Shown piece after piece: positions 9,029 through 30,800 of a DNA stretch of 43,981 nucleotides. Each line of letters begins with the position of its first letter. Position 1 is the stretch's first letter. The notes below the pieces were generated by a model. That model was given only the letters and a program-made list of their open reading frames with translations, was not told the DNA's origin and ran no database searches. A program made the position numbers and the translations under genes. Source of the stretch: a virus (lineage: Duplodnaviria; Heunggongvirae; Uroviricota; Caudoviricetes); the IMG/VR virus record IMGVR_UViG_3300045988_012512, positions 1 to 43,981 of that record; one strand, 5' to 3'.

Positions 9029-9057
9029 TTGCACACCCCAATATAATAGGGTACTAT
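9029..9057 (+). promoter_or_regulatory. sigma70-type promoter (TTGCAC-17-TACTAT) for the plus-strand island
   Basis: Canonical spacing; same promoter architecture recurs at 18527, 29673 and 30772. Confidence 0.55.
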
Positions 9058-18526: not shown

Positions 18527-18555
18527 TTGCGCACACCAACATAATAGGGTACTAT
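18527..18555 (+). promoter_or_regulatory. sigma70-type promoter (TTGCGC-17-TACTAT) for the DnaN-like gene
   Basis: Spacer and -10 region nearly identical to the promoter at 9029. Confidence 0.55.
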
Positions 18556-22895: not shown

Positions 22896-24146
22896 TTAAA
22901 GTGCGAAAGTCACCGGGATGTTGATTACTGGTTTAACCACCGGCATCTCGTAAACTACAGGATAGCCGAGAGCATCCGCCATATGGTCAATGATGCCGTC
23001 TTTAGCTGGCTCTCCGTTATCGTCGTATGCCTGCTGCTCCAGCGTCTTTGCTATCTCAGGGCATAAGTGGTCGTTAACCCACAGCTTACCTTTTTCCAGC
23101 GCGGTATTCACGGCTAAAACACGGTCTTTAACCGGTGGGTTGGCGGATTTAGCGCGGACATCAAAACCGGCCTGCTGTAGTAAGGCAATATCGGAGATTG
23201 ATGCCGAGTTGGTTTTGCGGTTCTTGCCGCTGGCGTCGGGGTAAACGACGATGCGGTGGCCTTGTGACTTCCACTTCTCAGTAATTACGCGCACGGTGTC
23301 TGGTGTATCGAACAAGCCTTTCAGTTCTGCTACCGCGTGCCAGCCGTCTTTACGTTGCACATACACGGCGCTGGCGTTTTTCGTAACGTTGAAGTCCTGC
23401 CCGATGTACAGTGTGTCGCCTGGCTGAATCGTCTCTTTGCTGCGGTGCTTGCGACGGTCATACGCGTAATACACGCTGCCGGATGTCAGGTTGACGAACT
23501 CACCGTTCAGATACGCGTTAATCAACTGTGCTGGGTAAGTCTCTGTCAGCGAGCTGATGTAATCCGGTGGCAGGAAACGCGCGTTCTCGTGTGTTGAAGC
23601 CTGCACCATCGAGTAACTCGGTGTCGGATTCTCTTTGAACTTGGCGTAGACGAACTTGAACCCTTCCGGCGTCGTGGTTACGGAGATGTGGTTAATTACA
23701 CCCGGGATAACCAGACGCATACGGGCTACAATTTTGTTCCACGCCAGTTCCGCCTTCTCGCGGCTCAATACGTCCAGTTCATCCACGACCGCAGCAGCGA
23801 TTTTGAAACCTACGATAGAGCCAGGGTTATCCATCGAACGGCAGATAACCGTCCCGAGAACCGTCTTACCGCGAGTAACCACGACTTCTTTGTCACCGGA
23901 TTTAACCAGCACATCAAGGCCGAGCAGGTTAGCCGCTTCCTCGAATGTCGGGTAGAAGATGTCGCGGATAGCTGGATATGTGGGGCCGAAGTAACCCAGG
24001 CGCGTACCTGGATGCTTGAGCATAAACGTAAGCAGGTCAAGGCAGCCAACAAATGTCTTTCCGCTGCCGAAGCCTCCGACGTAGGCCTTGTACTTGTTAT
24101 CGCAATTCAGGAACAGCGCCTGAGGGGCGGATAGCTGAATACTCAT
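22896..24146 (-). CDS. terminase large subunit
   Basis: Walker A GGFGSGKTFVG near the N-terminus; ATGA overlap with the upstream small subunit. Confidence 0.8.
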   Translation of the reverse strand: MSIQLSAPQALFLNCDNKYKAYVGGFGSGKTFVGCLDLLTFMLKHPGTRLGYFGPTYPAIRDIFYPTFEEAANLLGLDVLVKSGDKEVVVTRGKTVLGTVICRSMDNPGSIVGFKIAAAVVDELDVLSREKAELAWNKIVARMRLVIPGVINHISVTTTPEGFKFVYAKFKENPTPSYSMVQASTHENARFLPPDYISSLTETYPAQLINAYLNGEFVNLTSGSVYYAYDRRKHRSKETIQPGDTLYIGQDFNVTKNASAVYVQRKDGWHAVAELKGLFDTPDTVRVITEKWKSQGHRIVVYPDASGKNRKTNSASISDIALLQQAGFDVRAKSANPPVKDRVLAVNTALEKGKLWVNDHLCPEIAKTLEQQAYDDNGEPAKDGIIDHMADALGYPVVYEMPVVKPVINIPVTFAL

Positions 24147-24688
24147 TCCTCTACCTCGCCCATGTTTGTGGTAACTATTTTGCCTACGGGCTCCGCAACA
24201 CTGAAAATAATCTCAGTCGGTGCCGTTTCTTCGGTGGATTCGACCGGTTTCTCTTTGCTAAGGCCTAGCTTCGCGGCAGCAAATGTAGCCGAGATGCCCG
24301 CGGCCCCGGTCTCGGTGAAGTATGCCTCTTCCAGTGCCTGTGCAGTTTCATAGGCTTCTGCAAATGCGGGAATCTCGCGCAGCCATAGCTTAATAATCGG
24401 GATAGTGACGCCGATGTGTAAGGCGAAGCGGGCCAGTGACGGTGGTTTATCCTGAATCAGCGGGCGTTCGTCACCCTTGGACGTAGGTACAAGTTCCCAC
24501 GACGTGCGGTCGAAGAACTCGATTAACGCGTCGCAATAGTCCGGGTCCCACAACGCGGCGGAATTACGGGACGATTGATAAAGGCTCTGTTTCCCACGCG
24601 GTCGCCTACGGCGGCGGTTTGCACTAACAGCTTCTTCATGTGCAGCTTGCACCACCTCTGGCGATGGCTGCTTGAGTTTCAGCTTCAT
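24143..24688 (-). CDS. terminase small subunit
   Basis: Arg-rich basic N-terminus; AAGGGG RBS before the ATG at 24688 (ORF track extends to 24727). Confidence 0.5.
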   Translation of the reverse strand: MKLKLKQPSPEVVQAAHEEAVSANRRRRRPRGKQSLYQSSRNSAALWDPDYCDALIEFFDRTSWELVPTSKGDERPLIQDKPPSLARFALHIGVTIPIIKLWLREIPAFAEAYETAQALEEAYFTETGAAGISATFAAAKLGLSKEKPVESTEETAPTEIIFSVAEPVGKIVTTNMGEVEE

Positions 24689-26641: not shown

Positions 26642-26670
26642 AATATAATAGGGTCGAGGGTAATAGTCAA
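26642..26670 (-). promoter_or_regulatory. sigma70-type promoter (TTGACT-17-TATATT)
   Basis: Read on the minus strand, immediately after a strong terminator. Confidence 0.5.
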
Positions 26671-26692
26671 CTAGTCATTGCAGAAAATAGAT

Positions 26693-26723
26693 AAAAAAAA
26701 TCCCGGCTAGGTCAGGGCCGGGA
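26693..26723 (-). terminator. strong intrinsic terminator (7-bp GC stem followed by eight T)
   Basis: Minus strand reads TCCCGGCCCTGACCTAGCCGGGA then TTTTTTTT. Confidence 0.75.
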
Positions 26724-26760
26724 GAAACAGAGAGCAGAGGGATGATACAGGAGGTTGGTG
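26693..26760 (-). ncRNA. candidate small RNA (about 65 nt, CU-rich) between tandem terminators
   Basis: Promoter-like TTGACA-17-CATACT at 26794..26766 on the minus strand, then a pyrimidine-rich segment, then the terminator at 26723..26693. Confidence 0.25.
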
Positions 26761-26906
26761 AAACCAGTATGAAGCTGCCGTTGTTGGGTGTCAACAGAGA
26801 TTTCCGGCTCGCGTTACCGCACATCGGCCTGACCTTGTCACAGGTCCGCGCGGGGGATGATACCCGGAATGCCCGCAATGTTGTTTATCTTCTGTTGACG
26901 AAATAA

Positions 26907-26929
26907 AACCCGGATTCGCGGTCCGGGTT
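26907..26929 (-). terminator. intrinsic terminator downstream of the endolysin gene
   Basis: 8-bp stem AACCCGGA / TCCGGGTT followed on the minus strand by TTTATTTC. Confidence 0.5.
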
Positions 26930-26968
26930 TCGGGGTGGGGCAAGCACAAACAGCGCAGGGTGATTATA

Positions 26969-27457
26969 TCAGCCTTTCACCGCACGTCCAATAGCAACCG
27001 CCTCTTGCCACGGTTTACCGTCGAACAGTGCCAGACGTCCAGCGGTACGGCGGCGCAAGCCAAGTAATGGTTTGCCGTTCTGGTTGATGAACAGCGCCAG
27101 CTTGGCCCGCAGTGTCGCAACGTCGCCTGAGCGCAGTGCCTTACCGGTACCGGTAGTAGCTGCGATAACGCCAGCACCCGCGTTAAATACCAGGTCGCAC
27201 ACTGCATCGAACTGCGCCTGTGTCAGCGAATGGTGTGCGGCGGCGTCAACCGCAGCTACGGCCTTAGCCATGTCGCGATTCAGTAACAGGAGGCCTTGGC
27301 CTGGTGTGATGGTCTGCCCGGCCTTAACATGTGGGCCATAGCTTCCGTACCCAATAGTAAGGTACTTCTCATTTGGCGTAGCACGATACGCAGTCCCGCG
27401 GAACCCCTCGAACGCGGCGGTGAAATGCAGTCCATTATCTGAAATATTTCGAGACAC
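26969..27457 (-). CDS. endolysin (GH24 lysozyme / T4 lysozyme-like)
   Basis: LHFTAAFEGFRGTAYRATPNEKYLTIGYG catalytic motif; GGAGG RBS before GTG at 27457 (ORF track extends to 27508). Confidence 0.75.
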   Translation of the reverse strand: MSRNISDNGLHFTAAFEGFRGTAYRATPNEKYLTIGYGSYGPHVKAGQTITPGQGLLLLNRDMAKAVAAVDAAAHHSLTQAQFDAVCDLVFNAGAGVIAATTGTGKALRSGDVATLRAKLALFINQNGKPLLGLRRRTAGRLALFDGKPWQEAVAIGRAVKG

Positions 27458-27707
27458 GCTTATGTCCTCCGTATGACAGCCACGCCTGACGAATCTGGCG
27501 CAGCGCAACTAATGTGATTAATGTCTCAGGCAGCGTTGGTGACACGCTGCCCTGTAACAGGTGGATACATCCGGCGGCGCAGACGATAGCAGTCAGGATA
27601 TAGAGCACCCGGCCGAACAGCCCGTCATCAACGCTGGGATGGTACACATTAAACAGCGATGTACCCCCGATTGCCAGCATACCGCCGAACCAGAATAACT
27701 CATTCAT
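27435..27707 (-). CDS. holin-like membrane protein
   Basis: About 90 aa from ATG 27707 (MNELFWFGGMLAIGG...) with 2-3 hydrophobic helices, immediately upstream of the endolysin. Confidence 0.55.
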   Translation of the reverse strand: MNELFWFGGMLAIGGTSLFNVYHPSVDDGLFGRVLYILTAIVCAAGCIHLLQGSVSPTLPETLITLVALRQIRQAWLSYGGHKRVSKYFR

Positions 27708-30771: not shown

Positions 30772-30800
30772 ATAGTATCCTATTATATTGGGGTGTGCAA
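30772..30800 (-). promoter_or_regulatory. sigma70-type early promoter (TTGCAC-17-TACTAT)
   Basis: -35, spacer and -10 nearly identical to the promoter at 9029..9057. Confidence 0.55.

What the first reader, a model, noticed from the sequence alone, without database searches (positions are those of the whole stretch)
26693..26906. Possible small RNA or micro-ORF between two tandem terminators after the lysis cassette
Two minus-strand intrinsic terminators (26929..26907 and 26723..26693) follow the endolysin gene about 175 bp apart. Between them the minus strand carries a promoter-like TTGACA-17-CATACT and then a pyrimidine-rich segment (CCTCCTGTATCATCCCTCTGCTCTCTG) ending in the strong terminator, which would give an RNA of about 65 nt with anti-Shine-Dalgarno character. 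The opposite strand instead offers a 45-aa ORF (26769..26906) with a purine-rich leader. The ORF-track ORF 26675..26878 crosses the terminator and is unlikely to be real.
Basis: inference. Interest (0 to 1): 0.55.

Follow-up and report, generated by a model that had tools for sequence, protein, structure and literature searches.

The report
Conserved small RNA gene after phage endolysin
Just after the lysis genes of this E. coli phage lies a probable gene for a roughly 66-base non-coding RNA with its own promoter and terminator; it is kept in about 440 related phage genomes, nobody has annotated it as an RNA, and its target is still unknown.

Summary
The window is a Kagunavirus-like (Guernseyvirinae) coliphage. 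On the minus strand, a promoter (TTGACA-17-CATACT, 26794..26766) is followed by a pyrimidine-rich stretch predicted to be unpaired, then a 7-bp hairpin and U8 (26723..26693). This predicts an RNA of about 66 nt (26759..26693).

One sequence alone is not significant, but comparison is. Across 37 distinct copies all 17 promoter-spacer positions vary and only 2 of 12 hexamer positions do (p=3e-6). Three unrelated spacers keep the 17-nt spacing. The hairpin pairs in 22 of 22 sequences, with compensatory changes in 3 of 7 pairs. The boxes CUCCUG and CAUCCCUCU are the same in the copies I read from E. coli Kagunaviruses (119 records) and Salmonella Jerseyviruses (328 records).

The upstream terminator and the 110-nt stretch behind it are variable inserts. 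In most relatives the endolysin stop codon lies inside or just before the -35. The plus-strand 45/54-aa ORF is not conserved and is rejected.

Best reading: an unannotated, Hfq-type, base-pairing small RNA with Shine-Dalgarno-complementary seeds, built like a 3'UTR-derived sRNA. No target was found in the phage, and host targets could not be screened. No Rfam family or paper describes it. It is a new member of a known kind, of moderate interest.

The parts
26789..26794 (-). P1 -35 hexamer, TTGACA
   Evidence: It varies at only one position, in one sequence (TTGACG in L003), across 37 distinct copies. It is also kept in the five Jerseyvirus loci I read, one of which (phage Jersey) has TTGACG.
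26766..26771 (-). P1 -10 hexamer, CATACT (GATACT in the majority allele)
   Evidence: Only the first base varies. The 17-nt spacing holds over three unrelated spacer sequences.
26693..26759 (-). Predicted non-coding RNA of about 66 nt. The start is inferred as 7 nt downstream of the -10; the end is in the U8 tract.
   Evidence: The start is an inference. The fold has a 36-nt unpaired 5' part, a hairpin and U8. The covariance model scores it at 84 bits. By inspection the RNA contains no AUG, GUG or UUG.
26748..26753 (-). Seed box 1, CUCCUG, complementary to the Shine-Dalgarno core AGGAG
   Evidence: Present in nearly all Kagunavirus and Jerseyvirus copies I read. The RP180-type has CUCCUU.
26736..26745 (-). 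Seed box 2, UCAUCCCUCU
   Evidence: CAUCCCUCU is nearly invariant, with 3 variant sequences among 37. It is identical in the Jerseyvirus copies I read.
26724..26735 (-). Pyrimidine-rich and U-rich linker, GCUCUCUGUUUC, ahead of the hairpin
   Evidence: A UUU run directly before the hairpin is present in all versions.
26701..26723 (-). T2 terminator hairpin, with a 7-bp stem and a 9-nt loop
   Evidence: -13 kcal/mol. It is paired in all 22 distinct sequences, and 3 of the 7 pairs show compensatory changes.
26693..26700 (-). U8 tail of T2
   Evidence: Relatives have 7 to 14 T here.
26642..26670 (-). P2, TTGACT-17-TATATT, the promoter of the next operon of small ORFs. It is context, not part of the RNA.
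   Evidence: Searches show conserved hexamers and a variable spacer. It shares the CCTATTATATT motif with three other sites in the window.
26795..26899 (-). Variable insert of about 105 nt between T1 and P1. It is not part of the conserved unit.
   Evidence: It is absent from most relatives. It contains two hairpins with modest covariation in 6 sequences. A homologous stretch lies in the non-coding region after the endolysin in L070.
26906..26930 (-). T1 hairpin with a UUUUAUUU tail; a variable module
   Evidence: It is present in only some arrangements.
26963..26990 (-). P0, TGGACG-16-TATAAT, with TG upstream (TGATATAAT). The endolysin stop codon TGA (26971..26969) directly abuts the -10. With T1 it would give a second short RNA of about 55 nt.
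   Evidence: The same promoter occurs in L003 (TTGACG-17-TATAAT), and TTGAC(A/G)-18-AATAAT occurs in L001 and L059.

Best explanation
The interval holds a small, self-contained transcription unit on the minus strand.

**The unit**
- A sigma-70 promoter, P1: TTGACA-17-CATACT.
- A non-coding RNA of about 66 nt.
- A strong intrinsic terminator, T2: a 7-bp GC-rich hairpin followed by U8.

**The RNA**
- Its first 36 nt or so are predicted unpaired and are 78% pyrimidine.
- That stretch carries two boxes, CUCCUG and UCAUCCCUCU. Both are complementary to purine-rich ribosome-binding sequences.
- A U-rich run sits just before the hairpin.

**Proposed mechanism (inferred)**
- Host RNA polymerase transcribes the RNA from the start of infection.
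- The U-rich run and the U tail bind Hfq.
- The 5' boxes pair with the Shine-Dalgarno or start region of one or more mRNAs and repress translation.
- The targets are most likely host genes shared by E. coli and Salmonella.
- In most relatives the -35 overlaps or abuts the endolysin stop codon, and T2 is also the terminator of the lysis operon. The same sequence is therefore also the 3'UTR of the lysis mRNA. That is the layout of promoter-bearing 3'UTR-derived sRNAs.

**Shown**: the anatomy, the conservation signature, the hairpin covariation and the lack of coding potential.

**Inferred**: the start site, expression, Hfq binding and the target class.
For: **The promoter behaves like a real promoter**
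- Across 37 distinct copies all 17 spacer positions are polymorphic, against 2 of 12 hexamer positions (Fisher p=3.3e-6).
- Three unrelated spacers (majority allele, window, L003) keep the 17-nt spacing.
- The adjacent promoter P2 shows the same signature.

**The unit stays intact whatever lies upstream**
- Upstream there may be nothing, a 30-aa ORF, the T1 module or the 105-nt insert.

**The fold fits an sRNA**
- An unpaired 5' region is followed by a hairpin and U8 (z -2.1 and -2.4).
- The hairpin is paired in all 22 sequences, with 3 covarying pairs.

**Distribution**
- 119 phage records carry the Kagunavirus version.
- 328 records carry the Jerseyvirus version.
- CUCCUG, CAUCCCUCU and the UUU run are identical in the copies I read from both.
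- A shorter homolog sits at the same position in TS6/FSL SP-031-like (Cornellvirus-type) and phiEap-2-like phages.

**Other points**
- The pyrimidine content is in the top 0.14% of windows.
- The RNA has no start codon (by inspection).
- Neither overlapping ORF has a PHROG family.
- The plus-strand ORF is not conserved.
- No plus-strand gene of 100 aa or more lies between 11.5 and 31.7 kb, so a cis-antisense role is unlikely.
Against: - No transcript data exist for this locus. The one Guernseyvirinae time-course RNA-seq paper does not look at non-coding RNA.
- No target was found. The best pairings to phage translation-initiation regions are no better than those of shuffled seeds, in this phage and in Sciku.
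- The terL start region was tested and rejected.
- Host mRNAs could not be screened. The E. coli search could, by my estimate, only have seen about 19-20 contiguous matches or more.
- Kagunaviruses are about 90% identical overall, so part of the sequence conservation is shared ancestry rather than selection.
- The -10 (CATACT/GATACT) matches the consensus at only 4 of 6 positions.
- T2 would be needed as the lysis-operon terminator even if no RNA gene existed.
Confidence: 0.5

Rival explanations
1. The conserved sequence is only the terminator and 3'UTR of the lysis operon, together with upstream sequence that helps P2. On this view P1 is inactive or incidental, and no separate RNA has a function.
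For: In most relatives T2 is the only terminator after the endolysin, so it is needed regardless. The T-rich tract from T2 to P2 lies where an UP-like element of P2 would be (my inference). Several GenBank records annotate just a 'terminator' here. Overall identity among these phages is high.
Against: This view does not explain invariant -35 and -10 hexamers at a fixed 17-nt distance across three unrelated spacers. It does not explain why CUCCUG and CAUCCCUCU are the same in the copies read from two genera while the first 6-12 transcribed bases differ. In the window a separate terminator (T1) already follows the endolysin, yet P1 and the RNA are retained.
Confidence: 0.2
2. P1-RNA-T2 is a leader or attenuator, or a lambda pR'-6S-tR'-like unit. 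A phage factor would let polymerase that started at P1 read through T2 into the small-ORF operon and on towards the terminase genes.
For: A promoter, a short terminated transcript and then downstream genes match the lambda late-promoter layout (established knowledge). The two alleles differ in exactly the promoter spacer and the first transcribed bases, which is where allele-specific factor-binding sites would sit.
Against: A conserved promoter (P2) lies directly after T2, so read-through is not needed. The initial transcribed region has no -10-like pause element (by inspection). No Q-like or other antiterminator domain was found in 10 flanking ORFs. The conserved part is the body of the RNA, not the promoter spacer. 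A further terminator separates the small-ORF operon from terS in Sciku.
Confidence: 0.1
3. The RNA is made but acts as a protein decoy rather than by base pairing. It could soak up Hfq, or Rho (C-rich, G-poor, unstructured RNA resembles a rut site), or ribosomal protein S1.
For: The RNA has an unpaired, G-poor stretch with many YC dinucleotides, a U-rich run and a U8 tail. No base-pairing target was found. Broad loss of Hfq-mediated RNA pairs during T2 infection has been reported (abstract read), which shows that phages do disturb this network.
Against: Specific boxes, rather than just composition, are conserved between genera. A 36-nt single-stranded region is short for a full Rho-binding site (established knowledge). 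Nothing here tests binding.
Confidence: 0.1
4. The plus strand encodes a small protein: the 45-aa ORF 26769..26906 or the 54-aa ORF 26742..26906, with a purine-rich leader.
For: The ORF exists, and AGGAGG lies upstream of the ATG at 26769.
Against: The AGGAGG is 14 nt from the ATG. In the majority allele the frame is MEQEVI-stop. The ORF body is missing from most relatives. There are frame-shifting indels and 8 codons changed non-synonymously against 1 synonymously versus L001. It has no PHROG family. All neighbouring genes are on the other strand.
Confidence: 0.02

Closest known systems
Promoter-bearing (type I) 3'UTR-derived Hfq sRNAs of enterobacteria, such as DapZ and MicL (from my own knowledge, not tested against their sequences)
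   Same: The promoter sits in or at the end of the upstream coding sequence: in most relatives the endolysin stop codon is inside or 2 nt before the -35. The sRNA shares its terminator with the upstream mRNA. It has a short unstructured seed, then a U-rich run, a hairpin and a U tail.
   Different: This one is encoded by virulent phages, downstream of a lysis cassette. In this window the promoter is about 175 nt past the stop codon and sits behind an extra terminator. No sequence similarity, no known target, and no Hfq data.
Pyrimidine-rich, anti-Shine-Dalgarno sRNAs: Burkholderia ncS16 (RF02866), anti-hemB (RF02837), Betaproteobacteria toxic sRNA (RF02278). CyaR of E. coli is recalled from memory.
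   Same: A CU-rich single-stranded region containing CCUCC/CUCC, followed by a GC-rich terminator and a U tail. These were the best sub-threshold Rfam matches.
   Different: Scores of 18-23 bits fall far below the gathering thresholds of 48-50. The aligned parts are mostly the terminator. The host range and origin are unrelated. This is resemblance in design, not homology.
Lambda oop RNA and the lambda pR'-6S RNA-tR' unit (established knowledge)
   Same: Short phage transcripts, each with its own sigma-70 promoter and an intrinsic terminator, placed between operons.
   Different: oop is antisense to cII, whereas here there is no convergent gene. The 6S unit exists to be read through by Q, whereas here a separate promoter follows the terminator and no Q-like gene was found.
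Described phage and prophage sRNAs of E. coli: AgvB/AsxR, StxS, svsR and the lambda sRNA that acts on host replication (papers listed; AgvB is RF02702)
   Same: Phage-encoded, Hfq-type small RNAs that act on host RNAs.
   Different: Those listed are described there as prophage- or lambda-encoded. The AgvB model scores 16.9 bits against a threshold of 56. This RNA is absent from 5,426 complete E. coli genomes, and no paper found links Kagunavirus or Guernseyvirinae with an sRNA.

Membership tests
Hfq-type trans-acting base-pairing sRNA (enterobacterial) | Own promoter giving a discrete short primary transcript | tested here: inconclusive
   The comparative promoter signature is strong, but there are no transcript data. 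The start site is inferred.
Hfq-type trans-acting base-pairing sRNA (enterobacterial) | Rho-independent terminator with a long U tail (about 6-7 U or more) | tested here: met
   A 7-bp GC-rich hairpin plus U8. Relatives have 7-14 U. Stem covariation is shown.
Hfq-type trans-acting base-pairing sRNA (enterobacterial) | U-rich stretch immediately upstream of the terminator hairpin | tested here: met
   UGUUUCU in the window, AGUUUUAU in the majority allele, CCUUUAU in Jerseyvirus and GCUUUG in TS6.
Hfq-type trans-acting base-pairing sRNA (enterobacterial) | Conserved, unstructured seed region | tested here: met
   The 36-nt 5' region is unpaired in the predicted fold. CUCCUG and CAUCCCUCU are the same in the copies read from two genera.
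Hfq-type trans-acting base-pairing sRNA (enterobacterial) | A target mRNA with conserved complementarity | tested here: inconclusive
   Phage translation-initiation regions pair no better than with shuffled seeds, and terL was rejected. Host mRNAs could not be screened with these tools. No complementarity long enough for the search to detect (by my estimate about 19-20 nt or more) exists in E. coli genomes.
Hfq-type trans-acting base-pairing sRNA (enterobacterial) | Binding to and dependence on Hfq | not testable with these tools
   Needs co-immunoprecipitation, RIL-seq or an hfq mutant host.
Type I 3'UTR-derived sRNA (promoter within the end of the upstream gene, shared terminator) | Promoter overlaps the 3' end of the upstream coding sequence | tested here: inconclusive
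   Met in the commonest Kagunavirus arrangement (stop TGA inside TTGACA) and in Jerseyvirus (TAG-GG-TTGACA). Not met in this window, where P1 lies about 175 nt past the stop codon.
Type I 3'UTR-derived sRNA (promoter within the end of the upstream gene, shared terminator) | sRNA and upstream mRNA end at the same terminator | tested here: inconclusive
   True by anatomy where T1 is absent. In the window T1 precedes P1, so sharing depends on read-through of T1, which was not measured.
Lambda-type late promoter with short terminated RNA and Q antitermination | A Q-family antiterminator gene in the phage | tested here: inconclusive
   No such Pfam domain in 10 flanking ORFs, and none annotated in the related Sciku genome. 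Not every ORF of the window was scanned.
Lambda-type late promoter with short terminated RNA and Q antitermination | -10-like pause element in the first transcribed bases, and no separate promoter for the downstream genes | tested here: not met
   The initial transcribed sequences GGTTTCACC and TAAATCACC lack a -10-like hexamer. The conserved promoter P2 follows T2 directly.
Any Rfam 15 family | Score at or above the family's gathering threshold | tested here: not met
   No hit in the window or in six related loci. The best sub-threshold hit was 23.3 bits against a threshold of 48.
Cis-antisense RNA (oop-like) | Overlaps a gene or transcript on the opposite strand | tested here: not met
   No conserved plus-strand ORF here. 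No plus-strand ORF of 100 aa or more lies between 11.5 and 31.7 kb.

The most novel reading that the evidence does not exclude
The RNA is a mimic of the 3' tail of 16S rRNA. The majority allele begins with AUCACCUCCU, identical to 10 bases of the E. coli 16S 3' end as I recall it, and all alleles keep CUCCU. It would be made in bulk early in infection by a whole subfamily of virulent phages. It would either mask strong Shine-Dalgarno sites across many host mRNAs, which is a form of RNA-based host shut-off, or act as a decoy for a host factor or defence nuclease that recognises the anti-Shine-Dalgarno tail. Around a conserved 3' scaffold the 5' modules are swapped between phages, and in this phage a second short RNA unit (P0-T1) sits in tandem.
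Probability: 0.1. Interest if true: 0.8.

Novelty: new member of a known kind. Interest (0 to 1): 0.5.

Why it matters
Few small RNAs are described from strictly virulent phages. Those in the papers I found are prophage- or lambda-encoded.

- This candidate is present in roughly 440 sequenced Guernseyvirinae genomes that infect E. coli and Salmonella. Many of those phages are being developed for therapy or biocontrol.
- It is not annotated as an RNA in any record I looked at. Some records place a hypothetical protein over it.
- Members of the group are in the BASEL collection (Bas70-76) and grow on E. coli K-12 derivatives, so the prediction can be tested directly.
- If it does repress host translation through Shine-Dalgarno pairing, it would be an RNA-level takeover tool.
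- It would also be a clean example of a phage gene built like a 3'UTR-derived sRNA.
- At minimum, genome annotations of these phages should carry an ncRNA feature here rather than a spurious ORF.

Tried and rejected
1. **Rfam.** Nothing at gathering thresholds in the window or in related loci. The sub-threshold hits (ncS16, anti-hemB, toxic sRNA, AgvB) are driven mostly by the terminator.
2. **Plus-strand micro-ORF and minus-strand ORF 26675..26878.** Neither is conserved and neither has a PHROG family.
3. **Targets within the phage.** I scored duplex energies of the 5' region against 254 candidate start regions in the window and a comparable heuristic set in Sciku. The best real hits were -33.7 and -30.1. 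Shuffled seeds gave bests of -27 to -35.
4. **terL start region.** AGAGGAATGA at 24143-24152 is the only other near-match to the complement of box 2. Its pairing is not better than shuffles (73/300 and 33/300 as good or better) and is absent in Jerseyvirus wksl3.
5. **Homolog or long antisense target in E. coli.** No match in 5,426 complete genomes at E<=10.
6. **Resemblance to the CU-rich 3' region of GcvB.** Not significant: 99 and 80 of 500 shuffles score as well.
7. **Lambda Q-type antitermination.** No Q-like domain in the flanking ORFs, no pause element, and P2 follows the terminator.
8. **Structure in the 105-nt insert.** RNAalifold found no compensatory pairs. A hand-drawn pair of hairpins has modest support in six sequences.
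9. **The 104-nt insertion in L018/L045.** It is not a widespread mobile element; it occurs in only one GenBank phage.
10. **Literature.** There are no papers on small RNAs in Kagunavirus or Guernseyvirinae. One badly framed search gave nothing useful.

Full report
**Setting.** The window is close to a complete genome of a Kagunavirus-like siphophage of E. coli (subfamily Guernseyvirinae). Parts of the flagged interval match K1G, K1ind1, Golestan and about 100 other phage records at 82-94% identity. Around the finding all genes run on the minus strand, in this order:
- two holins;
- the endolysin (26969..27508);
- the flagged interval;
- an operon of small ORFs of unknown function that do belong to PHROG families;
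- in the related phage Sciku, a terminator;
- terS and terL.

**The observation.**
- T1 is a hairpin at 26930..26906 with a UUUUAUUU tail.
- T2 is a 7-bp GC-rich hairpin at 26723..26701 with a 9-nt loop, followed by U8.
- TTGACA-17-CATACT lies at 26794..26766.
- The stretch between the -10 and T2 has 29 of 37 pyrimidines, in the top 0.14% of all windows of that length on either strand.
- The simple terminator scan missed both hairpins. My reading of why is loop length for T2 and a G-U stem extension for T1. Both form in the minimum-energy fold of the interval.
- Taken alone, the promoter match is not significant: 24 of 100 shuffles give such a match somewhere in the window.

**Comparative evidence for a transcription unit.** I collected the homologous region from GenBank phages and IMG/VR contigs.
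- In every Kagunavirus copy recovered with sequence downstream of the endolysin, the same module is present: TTGACA, 17 nt, (G/C)ATACT, about 36 nt of pyrimidine-rich sequence, the hairpin and a T run.
- Across 37 distinct copies all 17 spacer positions are polymorphic, but only 2 of 12 hexamer positions are (Fisher p=3.3e-6).
- Three lineages (the majority allele, the window and L003) have unrelated spacers, yet keep both hexamers exactly 17 nt apart.
- The next promoter downstream, P2 (TTGACT-17-TATATT, 26670..26642), drives the small-ORF operon and shows the same signature of conserved hexamers and a variable spacer.
- The RNA predicted from P1 starts near 26759 (inferred as 7 nt after the -10) and ends in the U tract at 26700..26693, about 66 nt.
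- It folds as a 36-nt unpaired 5' region plus the terminator hairpin.
- The hairpin is paired in 22 of 22 distinct sequences, and 3 of 7 pairs show compensatory changes.
- The RNA contains no AUG, GUG or UUG.

**What lies upstream is variable.** Between the endolysin and P1 the phages differ.
- In the commonest arrangement there is nothing. The endolysin stop codon TGA sits inside the -35 (GGTTGACA).
- Others have a 30-aa hydrophobic ORF, an 8-codon ORF, the T1 module, a roughly 105-nt insert, or combinations of these.
- The window has T1 plus the insert (26795..26899).
- So 'two tandem terminators' describes this phage, not the conserved element. Where T1 is absent, T2 is the only terminator after the endolysin and so presumably also ends the lysis-operon transcript.

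**How far the family reaches.**
- A covariance model of the RNA scores the window at 84 bits and a divergent copy, L053, at 60 bits. It gives weak hits (15-25 bits) at the same position in more distant endolysin relatives.
- I then read the corresponding region of true Jerseyviruses (wksl3, Jersey, SE479, SF5, Ent1). It runs: stop codon TAG, GG, TTGAC(A/G), 17 nt, GATACT, six variable bases, then GCUCCUG..AUUCAUCCCUCUAGCUCCUUUAUCCCGGUAA-loop-UUACCGGGA and 8-10 U.
- That version occurs in 328 phage records, almost all from Salmonella. The Kagunavirus version occurs in 119.
- In the copies I read from both genera the boxes CUCCUG and CAUCCCUCU, the UUU run before the hairpin, and the hairpin itself are kept. 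The hairpin has a C-G to U-A change.
- TS6/FSL SP-031-like (Cornellvirus-type) and phiEap-2-like phages have a shorter relative. TS6 has TTGGAC-17-TATACT overlapping the end of the endolysin gene, then AUUCCACCCAGCCAGCUUUG, a hairpin and U9.
- None of the records I inspected annotates an RNA here. Some mark a terminator, the Jersey record marks only P2, and some call a hypothetical protein across it.

**The coding alternatives fail.**
- The plus-strand ORF (26742 or 26769 to 26906) is cut to MEQEVI-stop in the majority allele, and its body is absent from most relatives.
- Where the body is present it has frame-shifting indels, and 8 codons changed non-synonymously against 1 synonymously.
- Neither it nor the minus-strand ORF 26675..26878 matches a PHROG family.

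**What it most likely does.** The anatomy is that of an enterobacterial Hfq-type base-pairing sRNA: a short unstructured conserved 5' seed, a U-rich run, a GC-rich hairpin and a long U tail. Both conserved boxes are complementary to purine-rich ribosome-binding sequences (AGGAG and AGAGGGAUG).

I therefore favour a trans-acting RNA, made by host polymerase from early infection, that masks the Shine-Dalgarno or start region of target mRNAs. The boxes are shared by phages of E. coli and Salmonella, so the targets would be core enterobacterial genes or conserved phage genes.

I could not find a phage target:
- pairing to candidate start regions in the window and in Sciku is within the range given by shuffled seeds;
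- the one attractive site, the terL start, is not significant and is not conserved in wksl3.

Host mRNAs could not be screened with the tools available. The module has no match in 5,426 complete E. coli genomes. That rules out a prophage or host copy and any long antisense target, but not ordinary short seed pairing.

**Rivals.**
- *'Only a terminator and 3'UTR.'* This does not explain the promoter signature, or the box conservation next to variable first bases.
- *A lambda pR'-6S-tR'-like read-through unit.* This is disfavoured. P2 follows T2 directly, there is no pause element, no Q-like domain was found in ten flanking ORFs, and the conserved part is the RNA body rather than the promoter spacer.
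- *A protein-decoy role (Hfq, Rho, S1).* This cannot be excluded.

**Comparison with what is known.**
- No Rfam family reaches threshold.
- A suspected resemblance to GcvB is not significant.
- No paper in the searchable library links Kagunavirus or Guernseyvirinae with small RNAs. The one transcriptome paper on a member of the subfamily does not analyse non-coding RNA.
- In design the closest things are promoter-bearing 3'UTR-derived sRNAs such as DapZ and MicL, and pyrimidine-rich anti-Shine-Dalgarno sRNAs. In biology the closest are the prophage sRNAs of E. coli listed.

**Verdict.** It is a new, unannotated member of a known kind, a phage-encoded Hfq-type sRNA. It is conserved across a large phage subfamily and readily testable, but it has no expression data and no identified target. 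Interest 0.5.

Noticed in passing
window 26899-26990, minus strand: A second possible short RNA unit lies directly upstream. Promoter P0 (TGGACG-16-TATAAT, with TG upstream to give TGATATAAT) has the endolysin stop codon directly abutting its -10. It is followed by about 55 nt (GCGCUGUUUGUGCUUGCCCCACCCCG plus the T1 hairpin and UUUUAUUU). L003 has TTGACG-17-TATAAT at the same place, and L001 and L059 have TTGAC(A/G)-18-AATAAT.
   Followed up: partly
window 26795-26899, minus strand; L070 about 2070-2150: The roughly 105-nt insert between T1 and P1 is present in only some Kagunaviruses (L001, L002, L017, L019, L059). It has a homolog inside the non-coding stretch after the endolysin of a distant relative (L070). 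Two hairpins are kept, with C-G, A-U and U-A variants at one pair, but only six sequences were available. It also contains GUAUCAUCCCC, which resembles box 2 of the RNA.
   Followed up: partly
L018/L045 (IMG/VR contig 3300015181_000003); GenBank PQ571288.1 39876-39979: In one lineage a roughly 100-nt sequence with 17-bp terminal inverted repeats (TTAGTTAGGCGAGTAGT...ACTACTCGCCTAAC) is inserted between the P1 -10 and the pyrimidine-rich region. That would lengthen the RNA to about 165 nt. It was found in only one GenBank phage, EC3-1.
   Followed up: partly
window 9040-9050 (-), 18538-18548 (-), 26642-26652 (-), 30779-30789 (+): The motif CCTATTATATT occurs four times against 0.5 expected. Two of the copies are preceded by GTGAATAGTA(C/T). 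This matches the repeated consensus tgAATAGTa-ccTATTat-T that a paper on the phage fBC-Eco01 assigned to a phage RNA polymerase. At P2 here it overlaps an ordinary sigma-70-like -10.
   Followed up: partly
L003 1763-1855; L011, L021 (same position): Some relatives carry a 30-aa hydrophobic ORF (MTEIDFILL.IG.GAVVGAFWG..DAFRKG) that overlaps the end of the endolysin gene and ends in the P1 -35. It may be a small membrane protein of the lysis cassette. The window does not have it.
   Followed up: no
window 26969-27508, minus strand: The mechanical ORF for the endolysin starts at a TTG and is 179 aa, whereas annotated relatives are 162-167 aa. The true start is probably the GTG about 36 nt downstream, behind GGAGGA.
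   Followed up: no
L067, L069 (IMG/VR), about 250-300 nt after the endolysin: Two more distant relatives have a much longer non-coding stretch between a -10-like TATAGT at the endolysin stop and the terminator. It contains AGGAGGUGGUCCCUAUCUCCCGCUGC, which carries both Shine-Dalgarno-like and anti-Shine-Dalgarno-like runs. There is no Rfam match.
   Followed up: no
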